Shown one piece after another: positions 1 to 4,234 of a stretch of DNA of 4,234 bases. Both the position numbers and the translations under genes were made by a program. The DNA comes from a virus. Taxonomy: Duplodnaviria; Heunggongvirae; Uroviricota; Caudoviricetes. The stretch's first letter is position 1, and every line of letters starts with the position of its first letter. The stretch lies in the IMG/VR virus record IMGVR_UViG_3300028965_000035; one strand, 5' to 3'. The notes beneath the pieces are model-generated. The model was not told where the DNA came from. It worked only from the letters and a program-made list of their open reading frames with translations, and searched no databases.

Positions 1-284
1 TCAGCCGGGGGCAGGCTGCCGGTCACGGCAGCCACCTTTGCGGCCGCGTCGGACGGGGAGACACCAAACACCTTTTCAACCAGTTTCAGGCCGTCACCGG
101 CACCACACTGATTGCAGTACCAGGTGCCGCGCCCCTCCCTGTCATCAAAACGGAAGCGGTCACTCCCGCCACAGACCGGACAGGGCTGATGACGGTTTTT
201 CAGCACCTGAATCCCCAGCGCCGGGAGAATACGCGGCCAGTGGCCGAGCGCATGGCTGACGGTGGCGGTTACGTTCATTTTCAT
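1..284 (-). CDS. alpha: N-terminal ~94 codons of P4-type alpha primase/helicase; gene continues beyond the window start
   Basis: Minus-strand ATG at 284-282, GAAGGAG Shine-Dalgarno (complement of 294-300) about 10 nt upstream. Open frame to the window edge translates MKMNVTATVSHALGHWPRILPALGIQVLKNRHQPCPVCGGSDRFRFDDREGRGTWYCNQCGAGDG..., i.e. a CxxC...CxxC zinc-ribbon typical of primase N-termini. Position downstream of orf106 matches P4 order. Confidence 0.8.
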   Translation of the reverse strand, partial: MKMNVTATVSHALGHWPRILPALGIQVLKNRHQPCPVCGGSDRFRFDDREGRGTWYCNQCGAGDGLKLVEKVFGVSPSDAAAKVAAVTGSLPPA

Positions 285-726: not shown

Positions 727-754
727 ATTTAATTTTTCGGGTGTCGTTTTTTAA

Positions 755-1210
755 TTACAGATAATTGCGGTAACTGTTATCCGGGGTGATTTCCGGGTCA
801 GGCTCCGTGCGGGGAATTTCCCGCCATTCCCGCGCCACCGGTGCCGCCCGGCTGGCCGGAACAGTGTCCTGCGGGTAAATATCCAGATATTTCTCCCGCC
901 ATTTCTGTAATTCCGGGTCTCCGGCCATTTCTTTCAGTACCGCATGCCGGTTTACGGGGCTGCGTTTAAACAGGTCAGGACGGTCACAGGTAAATTCCCG
1001 CAGAAAACGCCCCAGCGGGATGTCTGTGGTGCGCCCGTCAGCGAGGATACGCACAAGGATACTGAATTTACGGCGGTACGGGTTCCAGACAATGTCCGGG
1101 CAGCGGTACGGCATTTCCCACGGAATACCGTCTTCCAGAATGCCGACCACGGCCACATCGGGAAAACCGGCAGAACGGTAAATCTCACCGGGCTGGGGAA
1201 AATCAAACAT
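755..1210 (-). CDS. Hypothetical protein, 151 aa (P4 orf151 equivalent), function unknown
   Basis: Complete ORF in the track. ATG at 1210-1208 overlaps the end of the upstream epsilon frame (ATGTTTGA, 8-nt overlap). TAA stop at 757-755. Length and position match P4 orf151. Confidence 0.75.
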   Translation of the reverse strand: MFDFPQPGEIYRSAGFPDVAVVGILEDGIPWEMPYRCPDIVWNPYRRKFSILVRILADGRTTDIPLGRFLREFTCDRPDLFKRSPVNRHAVLKEMAGDPELQKWREKYLDIYPQDTVPASRAAPVAREWREIPRTEPDPEITPDNSYRNYL

Positions 1211-1490: not shown

Positions 1491-1680
1491 GGGACACCTC
1501 CACCACCGGCAGACGGGCAGCAAGGGAGAGCACATAGTCACGGACAAGGGAACGGCGGGCACTGCGTTCATCACCGGCGACGGTGCGAAGCATGCAGATA
1601 CGGGGATGACGGTCTGCGCGACGGACAGCCGCAAACACAAAGACAAATTCAGGGTGTGAAGGGGTAAGGGTTGTAGCCAT
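1483..1680 (-). CDS. kil: Kil, 65 aa; an in-frame internal ATG at 1593-1591 would give a nested 36-aa product (eta-like)
   Basis: ATG at 1680-1678 preceded by AAGGAG (complement of 1689-1694) with 8-nt spacer. This is residue 147 of the 211-aa track ORF 1483-2118, whose upstream part covers the CI RNA/seqA leader and is therefore not coding. Product [65 protein letters not shown]. Confidence 0.6.
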
Positions 1681-1686
1681 AAGGCA

Positions 1687-1699
1687 GTCTCCTTCGAGT
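1687..1699 (-). promoter_or_regulatory. seqC-like target of the CI RNA loop, overlapping the kil ribosome-binding site
   Basis: + strand GTCTCCTTCGAGT (1687-1699) matches 12 of 13 positions of GTCGCCTTCGAGT at 1946-1958. Its transcript ACUCGAAGGAGAC is complementary to the loop AUUCUUCGAG in the 1746-1810 RNA (about 9 bp including one G-U). Confidence 0.55.
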
Positions 1700-1745
1700 A
1701 GCAAATAACTGCTATCGCCGGAGTTCTCACGCTCGATGGCGATAG

Positions 1746-1810
1746 CCCAGACGGGGGTGAGAATACCGGCCTCGAAGAATACCGGCCAGCCCGGAGGCTG
1801 CCCCGCCTGA
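1746..1810 (-). ncRNA. cI: CI-type immunity RNA (antisense regulator carrying seqB in a hairpin loop); ends approximate
   Basis: Minus-strand transcript folds into an outer stem (GGCGGGG 1807-1801 with CCCCGUC 1756-1750) enclosing two hairpins: CAGCC-UCCG-GGCUG, and a CCGG/CCGG stem with 10-nt loop AUUCUUCGAG. The complement of that loop, CTCGAAG (1771-1777), occurs only here in the window. Flanked by the direct repeat GAATACCGGCC (1761-1771, 1777-1787). Confidence 0.5.
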
Positions 1811-1919
1811 GCTACCATTGACTCAGTGGCATAACATGCGATTGCGAACAGGATCATACCTGCACGGCAAACCACACGCCACACCATAATCTGGCGCTCT
1901 GTGGCGTTGATTGCGACAC

Positions 1920-1941
1920 AAAAAAAGACGCATGGCGCGTC
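1920..1941 (-). terminator. Terminator-like hairpin plus U7 in the PLE leader, immediately downstream of seqA
   Basis: Minus-strand RNA GACGC-GCCAU-GCGUC (5-bp GC-rich stem, 1941-1927) followed directly by UUUUUUU (1926-1920). The stem is short, so this is more likely a weak or conditional terminator than a constitutive one. Confidence 0.4.
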
Positions 1942-1945
1942 ATAT

Positions 1946-1958
1946 GTCGCCTTCGAGT
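1946..1958 (-). promoter_or_regulatory. seqA-like target of the CI RNA loop in the 5' leader
   Basis: GTCGCCTTCGAGT, direct repeat of the seqC box, about 40-50 nt downstream of the predicted PLE start; complementary to the seqB loop (about 8 bp). Confidence 0.5.
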
Positions 1959-1996
1959 TACACGGGTTCTCACGCCCGGCTGCCGATTTTGCGGCA

Positions 1997-2034
1997 GCGG
2001 AAAAACTATATCCGCAAATGCCGGAAAAAGGCAA
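1997..2034 (-). promoter_or_regulatory. PLE-like constitutive sigma70 promoter of the leftward operon
   Basis: Minus strand -35 TTGCCT (complement of 2029-2034), 18-bp spacer, -10 TATAGT (complement of 2005-2010). Predicted start near 1997, between the vis stop and seqA. Confidence 0.5.
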
Positions 2035-2069: not shown

Positions 2070-2336
2070 TCATGCGTCGTACCCCCGTTTGCGTCCGGCA
2101 ATGCGCCCGGTCATCCATGCGGTGATTTCAGAGTGCAGCCAGGCCACATTTTTACCGCCAAGACTCACCTGCGGCGGAAATTCCCCCTTACGGATGAGTT
2201 CATAGATGGTCGAGCGTGACAGGCCGCACAGGTGCATCACTTCCGGCAGACGTAAAAAACGCTCCTGCGTGATGTCCGGCAGCGGCATCAGTGGCGTCAC
2301 TGGGGCGGGAGACGGGGAAGAAAAAACAGCTTGCAT
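2070..2336 (-). CDS. vis: Vis, AlpA/excisionase-family helix-turn-helix regulator, 88 aa
   Basis: Complete ORF. ATG at 2336-2334 preceded by GAGGT (complement of 2344-2348) with 7-nt spacer. Product contains [27 protein letters not shown], a typical AlpA/Xis-type HTH. First gene downstream of the PLL-like promoter. Confidence 0.8.
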
Positions 2337-2384
2337 CGGGCTACCTCGTTAATGTCCATACAGCACCGGATAAGTCCGTCCGGC

Positions 2385-2456
2385 TTCGGGTAGCGCTTTA
2401 TTTTGTGAATATTTTCGGCAGACGCAACAGGGGGGATTTGTTCAGGCAGCCTTACA
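2385..2456 (-). promoter_or_regulatory. PLL-like late promoter with Delta/Ogr-type activator dyad TGT-N12-ACA
   Basis: Dyad TGTTCAGGCAGCCTTACA at 2439-2456 (centre 2447.5). Weak AT-rich -10 candidate around 2399-2407 on the minus strand, predicted start near 2390, reading into vis. Confidence 0.5.
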
Positions 2457-2520
2457 ATGGCTGTGTGTTTTTTATCCATCCGGACTGGAAGGGTCTCAAA
2501 GGGTTCTGAAGGACCTGGAA

Positions 2521-2740
2521 TTTTTTATAGTGAAATACAAATTGTTTTTTCTTATTTATTTCAGTGAATTAATAAAAATAAAAAGTAATAAACAGCACAA
2601 AAAGTCCATGAACGGGTGAACAGTGGTGAACAGACGGTGAACAGTCATTACTGCGATTGTTCACCCTTTAACTTACTGTATTACTTATCTTTTTTATTAA
2701 GGTGAACAGAGGTGAACAGTAAAACATAAAAAAAAACAGT
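2521..2740. other. Replication origin region: AT-rich tract with six copies of the octamer TGTTCACC (alpha-binding iteron type)
   Basis: Complement-strand copies GGTGAACA at 2615-2622, 2625-2632, 2636-2643, 2701-2708, 2711-2718 (each as GGTGAACAG); one opposite-orientation copy TGTTCACC at 2658-2665. Flanked by AT-rich DNA (2521-2600, 2666-2700) and an A9 run at 2728-2736. Confidence 0.7.
2615..2719. repeat. Iteron cluster (GGTGAACAG, five direct copies plus one inverted copy)
   Basis: Exact 8-9 bp repeats at about 10-11 bp (one helical turn) spacing in two blocks, separated by an inverted copy. Confidence 0.8.
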
Positions 2741-2795
2741 AAGCAGGTTTTTCCTGCGACCTTTTCCTGGCTTGCCGGTCTGAGGATGAGTCTCC

Positions 2796-2860
2796 TGTGT
2801 CAGGGCTGGCACATCTGCAATGCGTCGTGTTGTTGTCCGGTGTACGTCACAATTTTCTTA
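2796..2860 (+). promoter_or_regulatory. Psid-like late promoter with Delta/Ogr-type activator dyad TGT-N12-ACA
   Basis: Dyad TGTGTCAGGGCTGGCACA at 2796-2813 (centre 2804.5). Weak -10 candidate CACAAT at 2848-2853, predicted start near 2860, leader of about 25 nt to the sid ATG. Confidence 0.5.
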
Positions 2861-2885: not shown

Positions 2886-3620
2886 ATGTCTGACAACACC
2901 ATCCCTGAATATCTGCAACCCGCGCTGGCACAACTGGAAAAGGCCAGAGCCGCCCATCTTGAGAACGCCCGCCTGATGGATGAGACCGTCACGGCCATTG
3001 AACGGGCAGAGCAGGAAAAAAATGCGCTGGCGCAGGCCGACGGAAACGACGCTGACGACTGGCGCACGGCCTTTCGTGCAGCCGGTGGTGTCCTGAGCGA
3101 CGAGCTGAAACAGCGCCACATTGAGCGCGTGGCACGCCGGGAGCTGGTACAGGAATATGACAATCTGGCCGTGGTGCTGAATTTCGAACGTGAACGCCTG
3201 AAAGGGGCGTGTGACAGCACGGCCACCGCCTACCGGAAGGCACATCATCACCTTCTGAGTCTGTATGCAGAGCATGAGCTGGAACACGCCCTGAATGAAA
3301 CCTGTGAGGCGCTTGTCCGGGCAATGCATCTGAGTATCCTGGTACAGGAAAATCCGCTCGCCAACACCACCGGCCATCAGGGCTACGTCGCACCCGATAA
3401 GGCTGTCATGCAGCAGGTGAAATCATCGCTGGAACAGAAAATTAAACAGATGCAAATCAGCCTCACCGGCGAGCCGGTTCTCCGGCTGGCCGGACTGTCA
3501 GCGGCAACACTCCCGCACATGGATTATGAGGTGGCAGGCACACCGGCACAGCGCAAGGTGTGGCAGGACAAAATAGACCAGCAGGGAGCAGAGCTTAAGG
3601 CCAGAGGACTGCTGTCATGA
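2886..3620 (+). CDS. sid: Sid, external scaffold that redirects helper capsid assembly to the small size, 244 aa
   Basis: ATG at 2886 preceded by GAGGAG (2873-2878) with 7-nt spacer. The track's 2868 start is an in-frame GTG without a ribosome-binding site. TGA stop at 3618-3620 overlaps the delta ATG. Assigned by size and position directly before delta. Confidence 0.85.
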   Translation: MSDNTIPEYLQPALAQLEKARAAHLENARLMDETVTAIERAEQEKNALAQADGNDADDWRTAFRAAGGVLSDELKQRHIERVARRELVQEYDNLAVVLNFERERLKGACDSTATAYRKAHHHLLSLYAEHELEHALNETCEALVRAMHLSILVQENPLANTTGHQGYVAPDKAVMQQVKSSLEQKIKQMQISLTGEPVLRLAGLSAATLPHMDYEVAGTPAQRKVWQDKIDQQGAELKARGLLS

Positions 3621-4117
3621 TTTACTGCCCGTCGTGTGGACATGTTGCTCACACCCGTCGCGCACATTTCATGGACGATGGCACCAAGATAATGATTGCA
3701 CAGTGCCGGAATATTTATTGCTCTGCGACATTTGAAGCGAGTGAAAGCTTTTTCTCTGACAGTAAAGATTCAGGAATGGAATACATTTCAGGCAAACAGA
3801 GATACCGCGATTCACTGACGTCGGCCTCCGGCAGTATGAAACGCCCGAAAAGAATGCTTGTTACCGGATATTGTTGTCGGAGATGTAAAGGCCTTGCGCT
3901 GTCAAGAACATCGCGGCGTCTGTCTCAGGAAGTCACCGAGCGTTTTTATGTGTGCACGGATCCGGGCTGTGGTCTGGTGTTTAAAACGCTTCAGACCATC
4001 ACCCGCTTCATTGTCCGCCCGGTCACGCCGGACGAACTGGCAGAACGCCTGCATGAAAAACAGGAACTGCCGCCAGTACGGTTAAAAACACAATCATATT
4101 CGCTGCGTCTGGAATGA
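3617..4117 (+). CDS. delta: Delta, late-gene transcriptional activator made of two Ogr-like zinc-finger modules, 166 aa
   Basis: ATG at 3617 overlaps the sid stop (ATGA); GAGGA at 3604-3608. N-terminal module MIYCPSCGH...CRNIYCSATF and second module CCRRCKG...CTDPGCGLVF each have CxxC...Cx4C spacing like Ogr-family activators. Confidence 0.85.
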   Translation: MIYCPSCGHVAHTRRAHFMDDGTKIMIAQCRNIYCSATFEASESFFSDSKDSGMEYISGKQRYRDSLTSASGSMKRPKRMLVTGYCCRRCKGLALSRTSRRLSQEVTERFYVCTDPGCGLVFKTLQTITRFIVRPVTPDELAERLHEKQELPPVRLKTQSYSLRLE

Positions 4118-4178
4118 GGGCTGCCGGTTAACCCCGGCCGTTGCGTATTACCGTGAAGGAGATCGGTGAGTAACATCG

Positions 4179-4234
4179 ATGGAGATCGGTTCGTGTCACT
4201 TTCACAGAACCGTTTTTAAATTACCTTCACTGAT
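4179..4234 (+). CDS. 5' end of the next late-operon ORF (psu position in P4), truncated by the window end; product not assignable from 18 codons
   Basis: Only frame open to the window end after delta. First ATG at 4179 (MEIGSCHFHRTVFKLPSL...). The nearest strong Shine-Dalgarno, AAGGAGA at 4156-4162, is 16 nt upstream, which is too far for a good site. Identity uncertain. Confidence 0.3.
   Translation, partial: MEIGSCHFHRTVFKLPSL

What the first reader, a model, noticed from the sequence alone, without database searches (positions are those of the whole stretch)
2439..2813. Origin iterons sandwiched between two divergent activator-dependent late promoters
The six TGTTCACC iterons and flanking AT-rich DNA (2521-2740) lie exactly between the PLL-like and Psid-like promoters. 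Activator binding, divergent transcription and origin unwinding therefore share about 370 bp, which implies possible interplay between late transcription and initiation of replication. Iteron spacing of 10-11 bp places the copies on one helix face.
Basis: partly seen in the sequence, partly recalled or inferred. Interest (0 to 1): 0.5.

Follow-up and report, generated by a model that had tools for sequence, protein, structure and literature searches.

The report
P4-type origin between late promoters
This is the well-known replication origin of a P4-like satellite prophage, lying between its two late promoters as in phage P4; the one non-routine feature is a neighbouring 10-bp repeat block that differs from P4's and looks like a swappable landing pad for a helper phage's Cox/Apl regulator.

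Summary
Observation confirmed; interpretation essentially right, and already known. The window is 97% identical to satellite phage P4 (X51522 6686-10838). The P4 record annotates this stretch as the replication origin, with six "ori type 1 repeats" in the same order and orientation as the six TGTTCACC copies here (6 found, 0.17 expected). They lie in 20-29% GC DNA between vis/PLL and Psid/sid, each marked by a TGT-N12-ACA dyad. The 10-11 bp spacing holds only inside the 3-copy and 2-copy sub-clusters. No evidence was found for or against coupling between late transcription and initiation.

At 2481-2525 lie four ~10-bp direct repeats, P4's "ori type 2 repeats". In P4 these match the P2 Cox operator (27/34 nt, p<=0.0003). 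Across 120 unique related loci with invariant iterons, this block falls into 21 sequence classes. Most resemble Cox/Apl operators of different P2/186-like helpers; three control blocks do not. Vis stays 97-99% identical across three alleles. The window's allele is not P2-type. It is closest to the ev239/SW3 Cox group, but only at borderline significance. The origin is ordinary; the helper-matched cassette is a modest lead.

The parts
1..284 (-). 5' part of the alpha gene (primase-helicase, the origin-binding initiator); first 94 codons only
   Evidence: 98.9% identical to the P4 alpha/ORF106 record X05623; Pfam Zn_Ribbon_Prim, E=1.2e-19. A full-length 777-aa-class gene is present in the nearest genome.
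2070..2336 (-). vis (P4 ORF88), first gene of the PLL transcript
   Evidence: 88-aa ORF; Pfam Phage_AlpA, E=3.9e-21; corresponds to P4 ORF88 8764-9030.
2375..2414 (-). PLL core promoter region. A -10-like CAAAAT lies at 2400-2405 on the - strand; predicted start is about 2392-2393, reading leftward.
   Evidence: Most conserved stretch left of the origin (0.83-0.97 column identity over 50 representatives). No sigma-70 consensus promoter in 2300-2900. The start site is inferred from the dyad centre being at -55 (own knowledge of P2/P4 late promoters).
2439..2456 (.). PLL activator dyad, TGTTCAGGCAGCCTTACA (TGT-N12-ACA)
   Evidence: Two mismatches to P4 lie in the spacer only. A dyad-like sequence is found at the equivalent place in 10 of 16 cross-genus loci, as N11-N13 variants.
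2481..2525 (+). Array of four ~10-bp direct repeats (TGGAAGGGTC / TCAAAGGGTT / CTGAAGGACC / TGGAATTTTT). This is the position of P4's 'ori type 2 repeats', read here as a helper Cox/Apl-box cassette of non-P2 type.
   Evidence: Period-10 autocorrelation. The block is replaced relative to P4 while the flanks are conserved. It is the lowest-conservation block in the region (0.26-0.42). There are 21 allele classes among loci with invariant iterons. Alleles match helper operators whereas control blocks do not.
2521..2614 (.). AT-rich stretch (20% GC), candidate DNA-unwinding region
   Evidence: In 120 related loci the equivalent -85..-5 segment has mean GC 0.26 (range 0.19-0.36) although its sequence is only 0.37-0.64 conserved.
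2615..2622 (-). Type 1 iteron 1 (TGTTCACC)
   Evidence: equals a P4 'ori type 1 repeat'.
2625..2632 (-). Type 1 iteron 2
2636..2643 (-). Type 1 iteron 3
2658..2665 (+). Type 1 iteron 4, inverted; forms an 11-nt inverted repeat with iteron 3
   Evidence: (I14). Exact in 102 of 120 unique related loci, although it was not part of the search pattern.
2666..2700 (.). Conserved AT-rich spacer (CCTTTAACTTACTGTATTACTTATCTTTTTTATTAA, 17% GC)
   Evidence: 0.82-0.98 column identity; ACTGTATT is present in 116 of 120 loci. Function not established.
2701..2708 (-). Type 1 iteron 5
   Evidence: Exact in 110 of 120 related loci.
2711..2718 (-). Type 1 iteron 6
   Evidence: Exact in 55 of 120 and core GTGAAYA in 116 of 120 related loci.
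2719..2775 (.). A-run followed by a conserved block (GGTTTTTCCTGCGACCTTTTCCTGGC; TTTTCCTG occurs twice, 13 bp apart)
   Evidence: 0.75-0.94 conserved; direct repeat D11. Function unknown.
2796..2813 (.). Psid activator dyad, TGTGTCAGGGCTGGCACA (TGT-N12-ACA), centred about -55
   Evidence: Found 178-184 bp after iteron 1 in 119 of 120 unique related loci.
2834..2851 (.). Second TGT-N12-ACA dyad, centred about -18 of Psid and overlapping the -10 region (CACAAT, 2848-2853). Predicted Psid start is about 2860, reading rightward.
   Evidence: identical in P4. Its reading as a second Delta site is from memory of the P4 delta literature, not tested here.
2886..3620 (+). sid (244 aa), first gene of the Psid operon
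3617..4117 (+). delta (166 aa), the satellite's own Ogr-family late-promoter activator
   Evidence: Pfam Ogr_Delta, two stretches, E=5.7e-22; P4 delta 10314-10814.

Best explanation
Window 2439-2813 is the primary replication origin (ori) of a P4-like satellite prophage, in the same place and with the same anatomy as in phage P4.

Origin. The alpha primase-helicase, whose gene starts at the left end of the window, recognises the six TGTTCACC type 1 iterons (3 direct, 1 inverted, 2 direct). It also recognises a second iteron set (crr) beyond the alpha gene. It opens the adjoining 20%-GC DNA and primes theta replication without the host initiator proteins.

Promoters. Two divergent sigma-70 promoters without a -35 box frame the origin. 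PLL reads leftward into vis, and Psid reads rightward into sid-delta. Each depends on an Ogr/Delta-family zinc-finger activator bound to a TGT-N12-ACA dyad about 55 bp upstream. Psid has a second dyad near -18.

Third module. Between the PLL dyad and the AT-rich DNA lies an array of four ~10-bp direct repeats. In P4 this array copies the P2 Cox operator, and it is where P2 Cox binds to switch on PLL in a P4 prophage. In this window the array is a different allele, most like operators of the WPhi/SW3/ev239 group of Cox proteins. This element is therefore predicted to sense a different helper.

Shown here: sequence identity with P4 and its annotation; enrichment, clustering and cross-genus conservation of iterons and geometry; hypervariability of the array and its resemblance to helper operators.

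Inferred from established P4/P2 knowledge: alpha binding, unwinding, activator binding, start sites, Cox binding.
For: Identity with P4:
- 97% identity to P4 over 98% of the window.
- The P4 record annotates rep_origin, six type 1 repeats and three type 2 repeats at the homologous positions.
- The iteron block is 100% identical to P4.

Enrichment:
- 6 exact iterons against 0.17 expected.
- In the nearest complete element the octamer occurs 12 times against 0.47 expected: 6 at ori and 5 just beyond the alpha stop codon, which is the crr position.

Conserved geometry. In 16 loci from 10 other genera and about 100 IMG/VR contigs, iteron cores sit at +1, +11, +22, +43 (inverted), +87 and +97. The Psid dyad is at +178 to +184, and the AT-rich segment has mean GC 0.26.

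Promoters. No sigma-70 consensus promoter occurs in 2300-2900, and Delta is encoded in the window.

Array:
- P4's array matches the P2 Pc/Cox operator at 27/34 nt (p<=0.0003).
- PMC3936717 states that P2 Cox binds upstream of P4 PLL and gives the cox-box consensus TTAAA(G/C)NC(A/C) with 10-11 bp spacing.
- TGGCAA-type arrays match the Apl sites annotated in the phage 186 record.
- 19 of 21 array alleles reach z>=4 against a helper operator, against at most 1 of 21 for each of three control blocks.
- Vis is 97-99% identical across three different alleles.
Against: - Nothing here is biochemical. Alpha, Delta and Cox binding are carried over from P4/P2.
- The primary P4 origin papers could not be retrieved with the paper tool. 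Statements about alpha binding, independence from host initiators and the -55/-18 Delta sites therefore rest on the GenBank annotation and my own knowledge.
- The window's own array allele matches a helper operator only marginally. The best values are z 4.0-4.4, p=0.004 and p=0.016 before correction for about 12-21 comparisons. Control blocks reach z 3.9-4.3.
- The WPhi 12-mer is not enriched in the window.
- The ev239-type cox gene was not found in complete E. coli genomes.
- The related loci were collected by requiring the exact three-iteron cluster. Conservation of iterons 1-3 is therefore by construction; iterons 4-6, the spacer and the distances are independent.
- An IS end at 4139 shows that this copy has been disrupted downstream of delta, so the element may not be fully functional.
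Confidence: 0.88

Rival explanations
1. Functional coupling. Divergent PLL and Psid transcription, or activator or Cox binding, directly controls origin firing. Possible routes are negative supercoiling between the two promoters or a Cox filament spreading into the AT-rich DNA. On this view the promoters are part of the origin mechanism, not just neighbours.
For: - All elements share about 375 bp.
- The distance from iteron 1 to the Psid dyad is fixed at 178-184 bp in 119 of 120 loci.
- The distance from the PLL core to iteron 1 is quantised in steps of about 10.5 bp: 199-203, 209-214, 220-222 and 231-232. Helical phase between the PLL side and the iterons is thus kept.
- PMC3936717 proposes that at PLL the Cox filament grows in one direction, away from the promoter, which is towards the origin.
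Against: - The quantised spacing is explained more simply by arrays built of whole 10-bp boxes.
- The fixed Psid distance is explained by conserved sequence in between (2719-2775).
- From my own knowledge of P4, replication starts early after infection, before the late promoters are activated, and in vitro P4 replication needs alpha, ori and crr but not RNA polymerase. I could not retrieve these papers.
- No experiment or comparative signal here links promoter strength to origin use.
Confidence: 0.15
2. The 10-bp repeat array (P4 'ori type 2 repeats') is a true origin component, bound by alpha or a host architectural protein, rather than a helper Cox/Apl landing site.
For: - The P4 GenBank record labels the homologous repeats 'ori type 2 repeat' inside rep_origin.
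- The array abuts the AT-rich region and keeps a 10-bp period in every locus.
Against: - The array falls into 21 sequence classes while the iterons, and hence presumably alpha's specificity, are invariant.
- P4's array is 27/34 identical to the P2 Cox operator.
- Other alleles match 186 Apl sites, or SW3/ev239 or Shae_phiSM switch regions. Neighbouring control blocks do not.
- P2 Cox is reported to bind upstream of PLL (PMC3936717).
Confidence: 0.08
3. The array is the binding site of the satellite's own Vis protein (an AlpA-type regulator and excisionase that controls PLL and Psid).
For: Vis is encoded immediately downstream of PLL and is a small HTH protein functionally similar to Cox (Pfam Phage_AlpA). 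Directionality factors typically bind phased direct repeats.
Against: Elements carrying the P4 allele, the window allele and the L150 allele encode Vis proteins 97-99% identical to the window's Vis. Array sequence therefore does not co-vary with Vis.
Confidence: 0.05

Closest known systems
Replication origin (ori) of satellite phage P4 (X51522/NC_001609, rep_origin 9086-9809)
   Same: Same position between vis/PLL and Psid/sid. Same six TGTTCACC type 1 repeats in the same order, orientation and spacing. The iteron block is 100% identical, the AT-rich flank is the same, and both Psid dyads are identical.
   Different: The type 2 repeat block and part of the AT-rich DNA (2450-2600) are replaced by a different sequence with the same 10-bp period. 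There are two substitutions in the PLL dyad spacer. This copy also carries an IS end after delta.
P2 Cox operator (cox-boxes at Pe-Pc, at attP and upstream of P4 PLL) and phage 186 Apl operators
   Same: Four to six direct repeats at 10-11 bp spacing, located upstream of PLL. In P4 the array is a near copy of the P2 operator. In many other satellites it matches 186 Apl sites.
   Different: The window's boxes (T-G/C-G/A-A-A-G-G-G-T-type) do not fit the P2 consensus TTAAA(G/C)NC(A/C) or the 186 TGGCAA motif. Their best resemblance is to ev239 and SW3 switch/attP regions, and that is only marginal.
Iteron-controlled plasmid and phage origins (for example pSC101, R6K, P1, lambda ori)
   Same: Clustered short direct repeats for a dedicated initiator next to an AT-rich unwinding region, with phased spacing. 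A second distant iteron set (crr) recalls handcuffing or enhancer sites.
   Different: The initiator is a single primase-helicase polypeptide (alpha) rather than a Rep/O-type protein that recruits host DnaB/DnaG. This is from my own knowledge; the Zn_Ribbon_Prim domain was seen. The octamer iterons are much shorter than typical 17-22 bp plasmid iterons.
Ogr/Delta-dependent late promoters of P2-family phages and P4
   Same: TGT-N12-ACA dyads about 55 bp upstream of weak -10 elements, no -35 consensus, and an Ogr_Delta activator encoded in cis.
   Different: Here two such promoters are arranged back to back around an origin, and Psid carries an extra dyad near -18.

Membership tests
P4-type origin recognised by alpha primase-helicase | Cluster of TGTTCACC type 1 iterons in the 3 direct / 1 inverted / 2 direct arrangement | tested here: met
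   Six exact copies at 2615-2718 against 0.17 expected. The order and orientation are the same as the six annotated P4 repeats, and the block is 100% identical to P4.
P4-type origin recognised by alpha primase-helicase | AT-rich region adjoining the iterons | tested here: met
   2521-2614 is 20% GC and 2521-2740 is 29% GC, against 54% for the window. The same holds in 120 related loci.
P4-type origin recognised by alpha primase-helicase | Location between vis/PLL and Psid/sid in a P4-like gene order | tested here: met
   ORFs and the alignment to P4. The same layout is seen in 10 other genera.
P4-type origin recognised by alpha primase-helicase | Cognate alpha gene in the same element | tested here: met
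   The first 94 codons lie at window 3-284 (-) with Zn_Ribbon_Prim and 98.9% DNA identity to P4 alpha. The rest of the gene lies outside the window. A full gene is present in the nearest genome.
P4-type origin recognised by alpha primase-helicase | Second cis site (crr) carrying the same iterons | tested here: inconclusive
   crr lies outside the window. In the nearest complete element (99.3% identical over the origin region) five TGTTCACC copies lie just beyond the alpha stop codon.
P4-type origin recognised by alpha primase-helicase | Alpha binds the iterons and replication initiates here | not testable with these tools
   Needs footprinting and replication assays. Inferred from the identity with P4.
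Ogr/Delta-dependent late promoters (P2/P4) | TGT-N12-ACA dyad about 55 bp upstream of the start | tested here: met
   Dyads at 2439-2456 and 2796-2813; 5 matches in the window against 0.96 expected. The Psid dyad is conserved in 119 of 120 loci. The -55 register is inferred from -10-like hexamers, not from mapped starts.
Ogr/Delta-dependent late promoters (P2/P4) | No sigma-70 -35 consensus; dependence on a zinc-finger activator | tested here: inconclusive
   No sigma-70-type match in 2300-2900, and Ogr_Delta is encoded at 3617-4117. Dependence on the activator itself is not testable here.
Cox/Apl operator arrays of P2/186-like phages | At least four direct repeats phased at 10-11 bp | tested here: met
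   Four units at 2486-2525. Period-10 autocorrelation is the maximum in the window and in 16 of the 17 other loci tested (period 11 by 0.01 in L017).
Cox/Apl operator arrays of P2/186-like phages | Match to the P2 cox-box consensus TTAAA(G/C)NC(A/C) | tested here: not met
   The window array against the P2 switch gives z -0.7, and against P2 attP z 0.2. The P4 allele does meet this feature (27/34, p<=0.0003).
Cox/Apl operator arrays of P2/186-like phages | Sequence resemblance to the operator of some other Cox/Apl-family helper | tested here: inconclusive
   - The best matches are the ev239 switch (18/21, p=0.004) and the SW3 attP side (p=0.016). WPhi gives p=0.41.
- Control blocks reach similar z values.
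- The related L150 allele matches the SW3 switch strongly (19/22, p=0.0003).
Cox/Apl operator arrays of P2/186-like phages | Bound by a helper Cox/Apl protein, with activation of PLL | not testable with these tools
   Reported for P2 Cox on P4 (PMC3936717). Not known for this allele.

The most novel reading that the evidence does not exclude
The repeats that the P4 record calls 'ori type 2 repeats' are not origin parts. They are a swappable helper-sensing cassette. P4-like satellites keep an invariant origin and promoter scaffold, but exchange this 40-60 bp array for copies of the Cox/Apl operator of whichever P2/186-like helper lineage they exploit: P2-type, 186 Apl-type, SW3/ev239/WPhi-group or Xuanwuvirus-type. 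Arrays change in whole helical turns. The window carries a non-P2 allele that is common in E. coli (291 places in 275 of 5426 complete genomes). It would therefore be woken by a different helper than P4 is. A further, weaker reading is that Cox/Apl wrapping next to the AT-rich DNA also helps to open the origin.
Probability: 0.5. Interest if true: 0.55.

Novelty: already known. Interest (0 to 1): 0.25.

Why it matters
The origin-between-late-promoters layout is textbook P4 biology and has long been annotated in GenBank. Confirming it mainly tells the scan that this window is a P4-like prophage.

The comparative by-product may matter more. One short block inside the 'origin' varies like a specificity determinant and resembles helper Cox/Apl operators. 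If that reading is right:
- it gives a sequence-readable predictor of which helper phage can activate a given P4-like satellite;
- it gives an example of regulatory mimicry evolving by cassette exchange;
- it helps the design of P4-based delivery particles.

P4-like satellites occur in a large share of Enterobacterales genomes (PMC8628076).

Tried and rejected
- **WPhi as cognate helper for the window's array.** By eye the arrays look alike (shared GAAGGNNCTGGA). However, the WPhi 12-mer CCTAGAARGGAC with up to 3 mismatches is not enriched in the window (3 against 4.1 expected). Local alignment gives p=0.41.
- **6-mer sharing between arrays and helper switch regions.** The test is too insensitive: it misses the experimentally known P4/P2 pair.
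- **blastn of the array against 50,697 phage records.** Only chance hits.
- **Search for ev239-type C/cox in complete E. coli genomes.** Only the repressor gene matches, at about 76%. The neighbouring cox is of the Chuche/Xuanwuvirus type, and its operator does not match the window allele.
- **Vis as reader of the array.** Rejected, because Vis does not co-vary with the array.
- **TTTTCCTG motif of the conserved 2745-2775 block.** Scanned across a whole element in the hope of finding attP-linked Vis sites. The hits are scattered and uninformative.
- **Retrieval of primary P4 papers and reviews.** PMC413647, PMC3518693 and PMC4836473 are not held. Three keyword searches failed on term length, and one found nothing.
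- **Rfam.** No RNA family lies inside 2439-2813.
Full report
**What the window is.** Over 98% of its length the 4234-bp window is 97% identical to satellite phage P4 (X51522/NC_001609, positions 6686-10838). The gene order is that of P4.
- Minus strand: the start of alpha (1-284), ORF106 (299-619), ORF151 (755-1210), epsilon (1203-1490), the immunity RNA region and vis/ORF88 (2070-2336).
- Plus strand: sid (2886-3620) and delta (3617-4117).
- Pfam assigns Vis to Phage_AlpA, Delta to Ogr_Delta and the alpha N-terminus to Zn_Ribbon_Prim.
- About 1000 of 5426 complete E. coli genomes carry this intergenic region, always on the chromosome. The source is therefore a P4-like prophage.

**Checking the observation.**
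- Iterons: exact TGTTCACC occurs six times, all between 2615 and 2718. Chance expectation is 0.17, and no shuffle reaches six. With one mismatch allowed the count is not significant, so the signal is the exact clustered copies.
- Composition: GC falls to 20% in 2521-2614 and 29% over 2521-2740, against 54% overall.
- Dyads: TGT-N12-ACA sits exactly at the two ends of the finding, 2439-2456 and 2796-2813. There are five such matches in the window against 0.96 expected.
- Spacing: 10 and 11 bp within the first three copies and 10 bp within the last two. The fourth copy is inverted, and the two groups are 65 bp apart. The 'one helix face' remark therefore holds only within the sub-clusters.

**What it is.** The P4 GenBank record annotates the homologous stretch as 'origin of DNA replication' (9086-9809). 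It lists six 'ori type 1 repeats' in the same 3(-)/1(+)/2(-) pattern and three 'ori type 2 repeats' to their left.
- The alignment shows window 2612-2724 to be identical to P4. The same is true of everything from 2750 to the sid start, including both Psid dyads.
- In the nearest complete element (E. coli MS20677, 99.3% identical over the origin region) the octamer occurs 12 times in 14.5 kb against 0.47 expected. Six copies are at this site and five lie just past the alpha stop codon, the position of P4's cis-required region crr.
- From my own knowledge of the P4 literature (not retrievable here): alpha binds the type 1 iterons of ori and crr through a C-terminal winged-helix domain. PMC2777425 confirms that alpha has that domain, plus helicase and primase domains. 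Replication is theta-type and independent of host DnaA/B/C/G and of RNA polymerase.

**Promoters.** No sigma-70 consensus promoter is found in 2300-2900, as expected for activator-dependent promoters.
- If each dyad centre is placed at -55, PLL should start near 2392 (leftward; -10-like CAAAAT at 2400-2405). Psid should start near 2860 (rightward; CACAAT at 2848-2853).
- A third dyad at 2834-2851 then sits near -18 of Psid. From memory this agrees with a second Delta site described for Psid.

**Comparative anatomy.** I collected loci holding the exact three-iteron cluster. There were 16 from one-genome-per-species contigs (Phytobacter, Kluyvera, Enterobacter, Buttiauxella, Raoultella, Klebsiella, Citrobacter, Tenebrionibacter, Cedecea, Pseudescherichia) and 119 from IMG/VR. 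Together they give 120 unique sequences.
- Iterons 1-3 are conserved by construction. The rest is not, and it is strikingly fixed.
  - Iteron 4 is exact in 102 of 120 loci.
  - Iteron 5 is exact in 110 of 120.
  - The iteron 6 core is present in 116 of 120.
  - The 35-bp spacer between iterons 4 and 5 is 0.82-0.98 conserved.
  - The Psid dyad lies 178-184 bp after iteron 1 in 119 of 120.
- This holds even where Sid is only about 25% identical to the window's Sid.
- The AT-rich segment keeps its composition (mean GC 0.26) but not its sequence.

**The overlooked module.** Differences between the window and P4 concentrate in two patches.
- One is 1650-2000, the immunity RNA region. Rfam finds C4 antisense RNA, isrK and c4-a1b1 there.
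- The other is 2450-2600. There P4's type 2 repeats (CCACTTAAAG TCATTTAAAG CCACTTAAAG) are replaced by GGACTGGAAG GGTCTCAAAG GGTTCTGAAG GACCTGGAAT, which has the same 10-bp period.
- Across the 133 loci collected this block is the least conserved part of the region (0.26-0.42) and falls into 21 classes at 80% identity.
- The distance from the conserved PLL core to iteron 1 is quantised at 199-203, 209-214, 220-222 and 231-232 bp. Arrays therefore differ by whole helical turns.

**What the array is.** P4's repeats fit the P2 cox-box consensus TTAAA(G/C)NC(A/C), spaced 10-11 bp. P2 Cox is reported to bind upstream of P4 PLL and activate it (PMC3936717; the P2 record notes the same).
- P4: the array aligns to the P2 Pc/Cox operator at 27 of 34 positions (p<=0.0003).
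- TGGCAA arrays: those in the non-E. coli satellites match the 'binding sites for Apl' annotated in phage 186 (z 5-10).
- 186-like phages from IMG/VR: a scan for phased TGGCAA found phages in which the array sits just upstream of an Apl 92% identical to that of 186. A second array lies about 1.7 kb away on the attP side of int.
- Other alleles:
  - The common E. coli 'L150' allele matches the SW3 switch (19/22, p=0.0003).
  - TTGGCC arrays match the switch of Citrobacter phage Shae_phiSM (z 5-7).
- Controls: 19 of 21 alleles reach z>=4 against some helper operator. At most 1 of 21 does so for AT-rich, iteron or downstream control blocks from the same loci.
- Vis is 97-99% identical in elements carrying three different alleles, and the iterons never change. 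Neither Vis nor alpha is therefore a likely reader of the array.
- The best reading is that the 'type 2 repeats' are a helper Cox/Apl operator mimic that varies with helper lineage.

**The window's own allele.** It occurs at 291 places in 275 complete E. coli genomes, against 480 places for the P4 allele, out of 1211 places that hold the region.
- It does not fit the P2 or 186 motifs.
- Its best matches are the switch of Escherichia phage ESSI2_ev239 (18/21 with one gap, p=0.004) and the attP side of SW3 (p=0.016). The WPhi comparison is not significant.
- After multiple-test correction, and given control maxima of z about 4, this assignment is only suggestive.
- The ev239-type cox gene was not found in complete E. 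coli genomes, so the true cognate helper was probably not sampled.

**The proposed interplay.** Both promoters fire away from the origin, so twin-domain negative supercoiling could in principle help opening. PMC3936717 also proposes that at PLL the Cox filament grows away from the promoter, which is towards the AT-rich DNA.
- The conserved spacings have simpler explanations: box-sized array units and conserved intervening sequence.
- From my own knowledge, P4 replication precedes late-promoter activation and does not require RNA polymerase in vitro.
- I rate direct coupling at about 0.15. It needs the replication assays listed under next steps.

**Verdict.** The finding is real and correctly interpreted, but it is already known: it is the P4 origin in a P4-like prophage. 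Interest is low for the origin itself. The helper-matched repeat cassette inside the same interval is a modest, testable lead. I could not find it described in the searchable literature, although that library lacks most of the older P2/P4 papers.

Noticed in passing
window 4139-4234: Homology to P4 stops at 4141, 24 bp after the delta stop codon. The last 96 bases are 99% identical to the end of an IS21-family insertion sequence (transposase plus ATP-binding helper genes) seen in Escherichia phages PhiR12_1 to PhiR12_4. In the nearest genome psu follows delta instead. This copy of the satellite therefore seems to carry an IS insertion between delta and psu.
   Followed up: partly
window 1650-2011: This is the second patch of divergence from P4 (about 45 of the mismatches). 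It coincides with three Rfam hits: C4 antisense RNA (1735-1822, -), isrK (1921-1998, -) and c4-a1b1 targets (1959-2011, -). These are the P4 CI immunity RNA and its targets, so this element probably has a different immunity specificity from P4.
   Followed up: partly
window 2834-2851: A third TGT-N12-ACA dyad (TGTCCGGTGTACGTCACA) overlaps the Psid -10 region, centred near -18 and just outside the finding's coordinates. It is identical in P4.
   Followed up: partly
window 2666-2700: The 35-bp AT-rich spacer between the inverted iteron 4 and iteron 5 (CCTTTAACTTACTGTATTACTTATCTTTTT...) is as conserved across genera as the iterons themselves (0.82-0.98; ACTGTATT in 116 of 120 loci). It was not selected for. 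It may be the real unwinding or priming site, or a host-factor site.
   Followed up: partly
window 2745-2775: A conserved block, GGTTTTTCCTGCGACCTTTTCCTGGCTTGCC (0.75-0.94), lies between the origin and the Psid dyad and contains TTTTCCTG twice, 13 bp apart. Its function is unknown. A motif scan of a whole element was uninformative.
   Followed up: partly
window 2636-2665: Iteron 3 and the inverted iteron 4 form an 11-bp inverted repeat with an 8-nt loop, which the terminator scan flagged as a hairpin. The arrangement (+22/+43) is kept in nearly all related loci. It could form a hairpin once the DNA is single-stranded.
   Followed up: no
window 742-759 and 1945-1962: Two further TGT-N12-ACA matches lie outside the origin region. 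One is just downstream of the ORF151 stop codon. The other is in the PLE/immunity region, overlapping the isrK hit. They were not examined.
   Followed up: no
related loci L004-L019 and L143-L254, PLL core to iteron 1: The distance from the conserved PLL core (GTGAATA) to the first iteron is quantised: 199-203 (17 loci), 209-214 (67), 220-222 (10) and 231-232 (2). The array region therefore changes length in whole helical turns.
   Followed up: yes
L043, L048, L050, L062, L064 (IMG/VR 186-like phages): Phased TGGCAA arrays occur twice per phage, about 1.68 kb apart on opposite strands. One is directly upstream of apl. The other is on the far side of int (the attP side). This mirrors the two annotated Apl site clusters of phage 186.
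   Followed up: partly
L149 6445-6474 and 9081-9110: One IMG/VR contig holds two complete three-iteron clusters 2.6 kb apart on the same strand, both with the TTGGCC-type array. This may be a tandem or rearranged pair of satellites.
   Followed up: no
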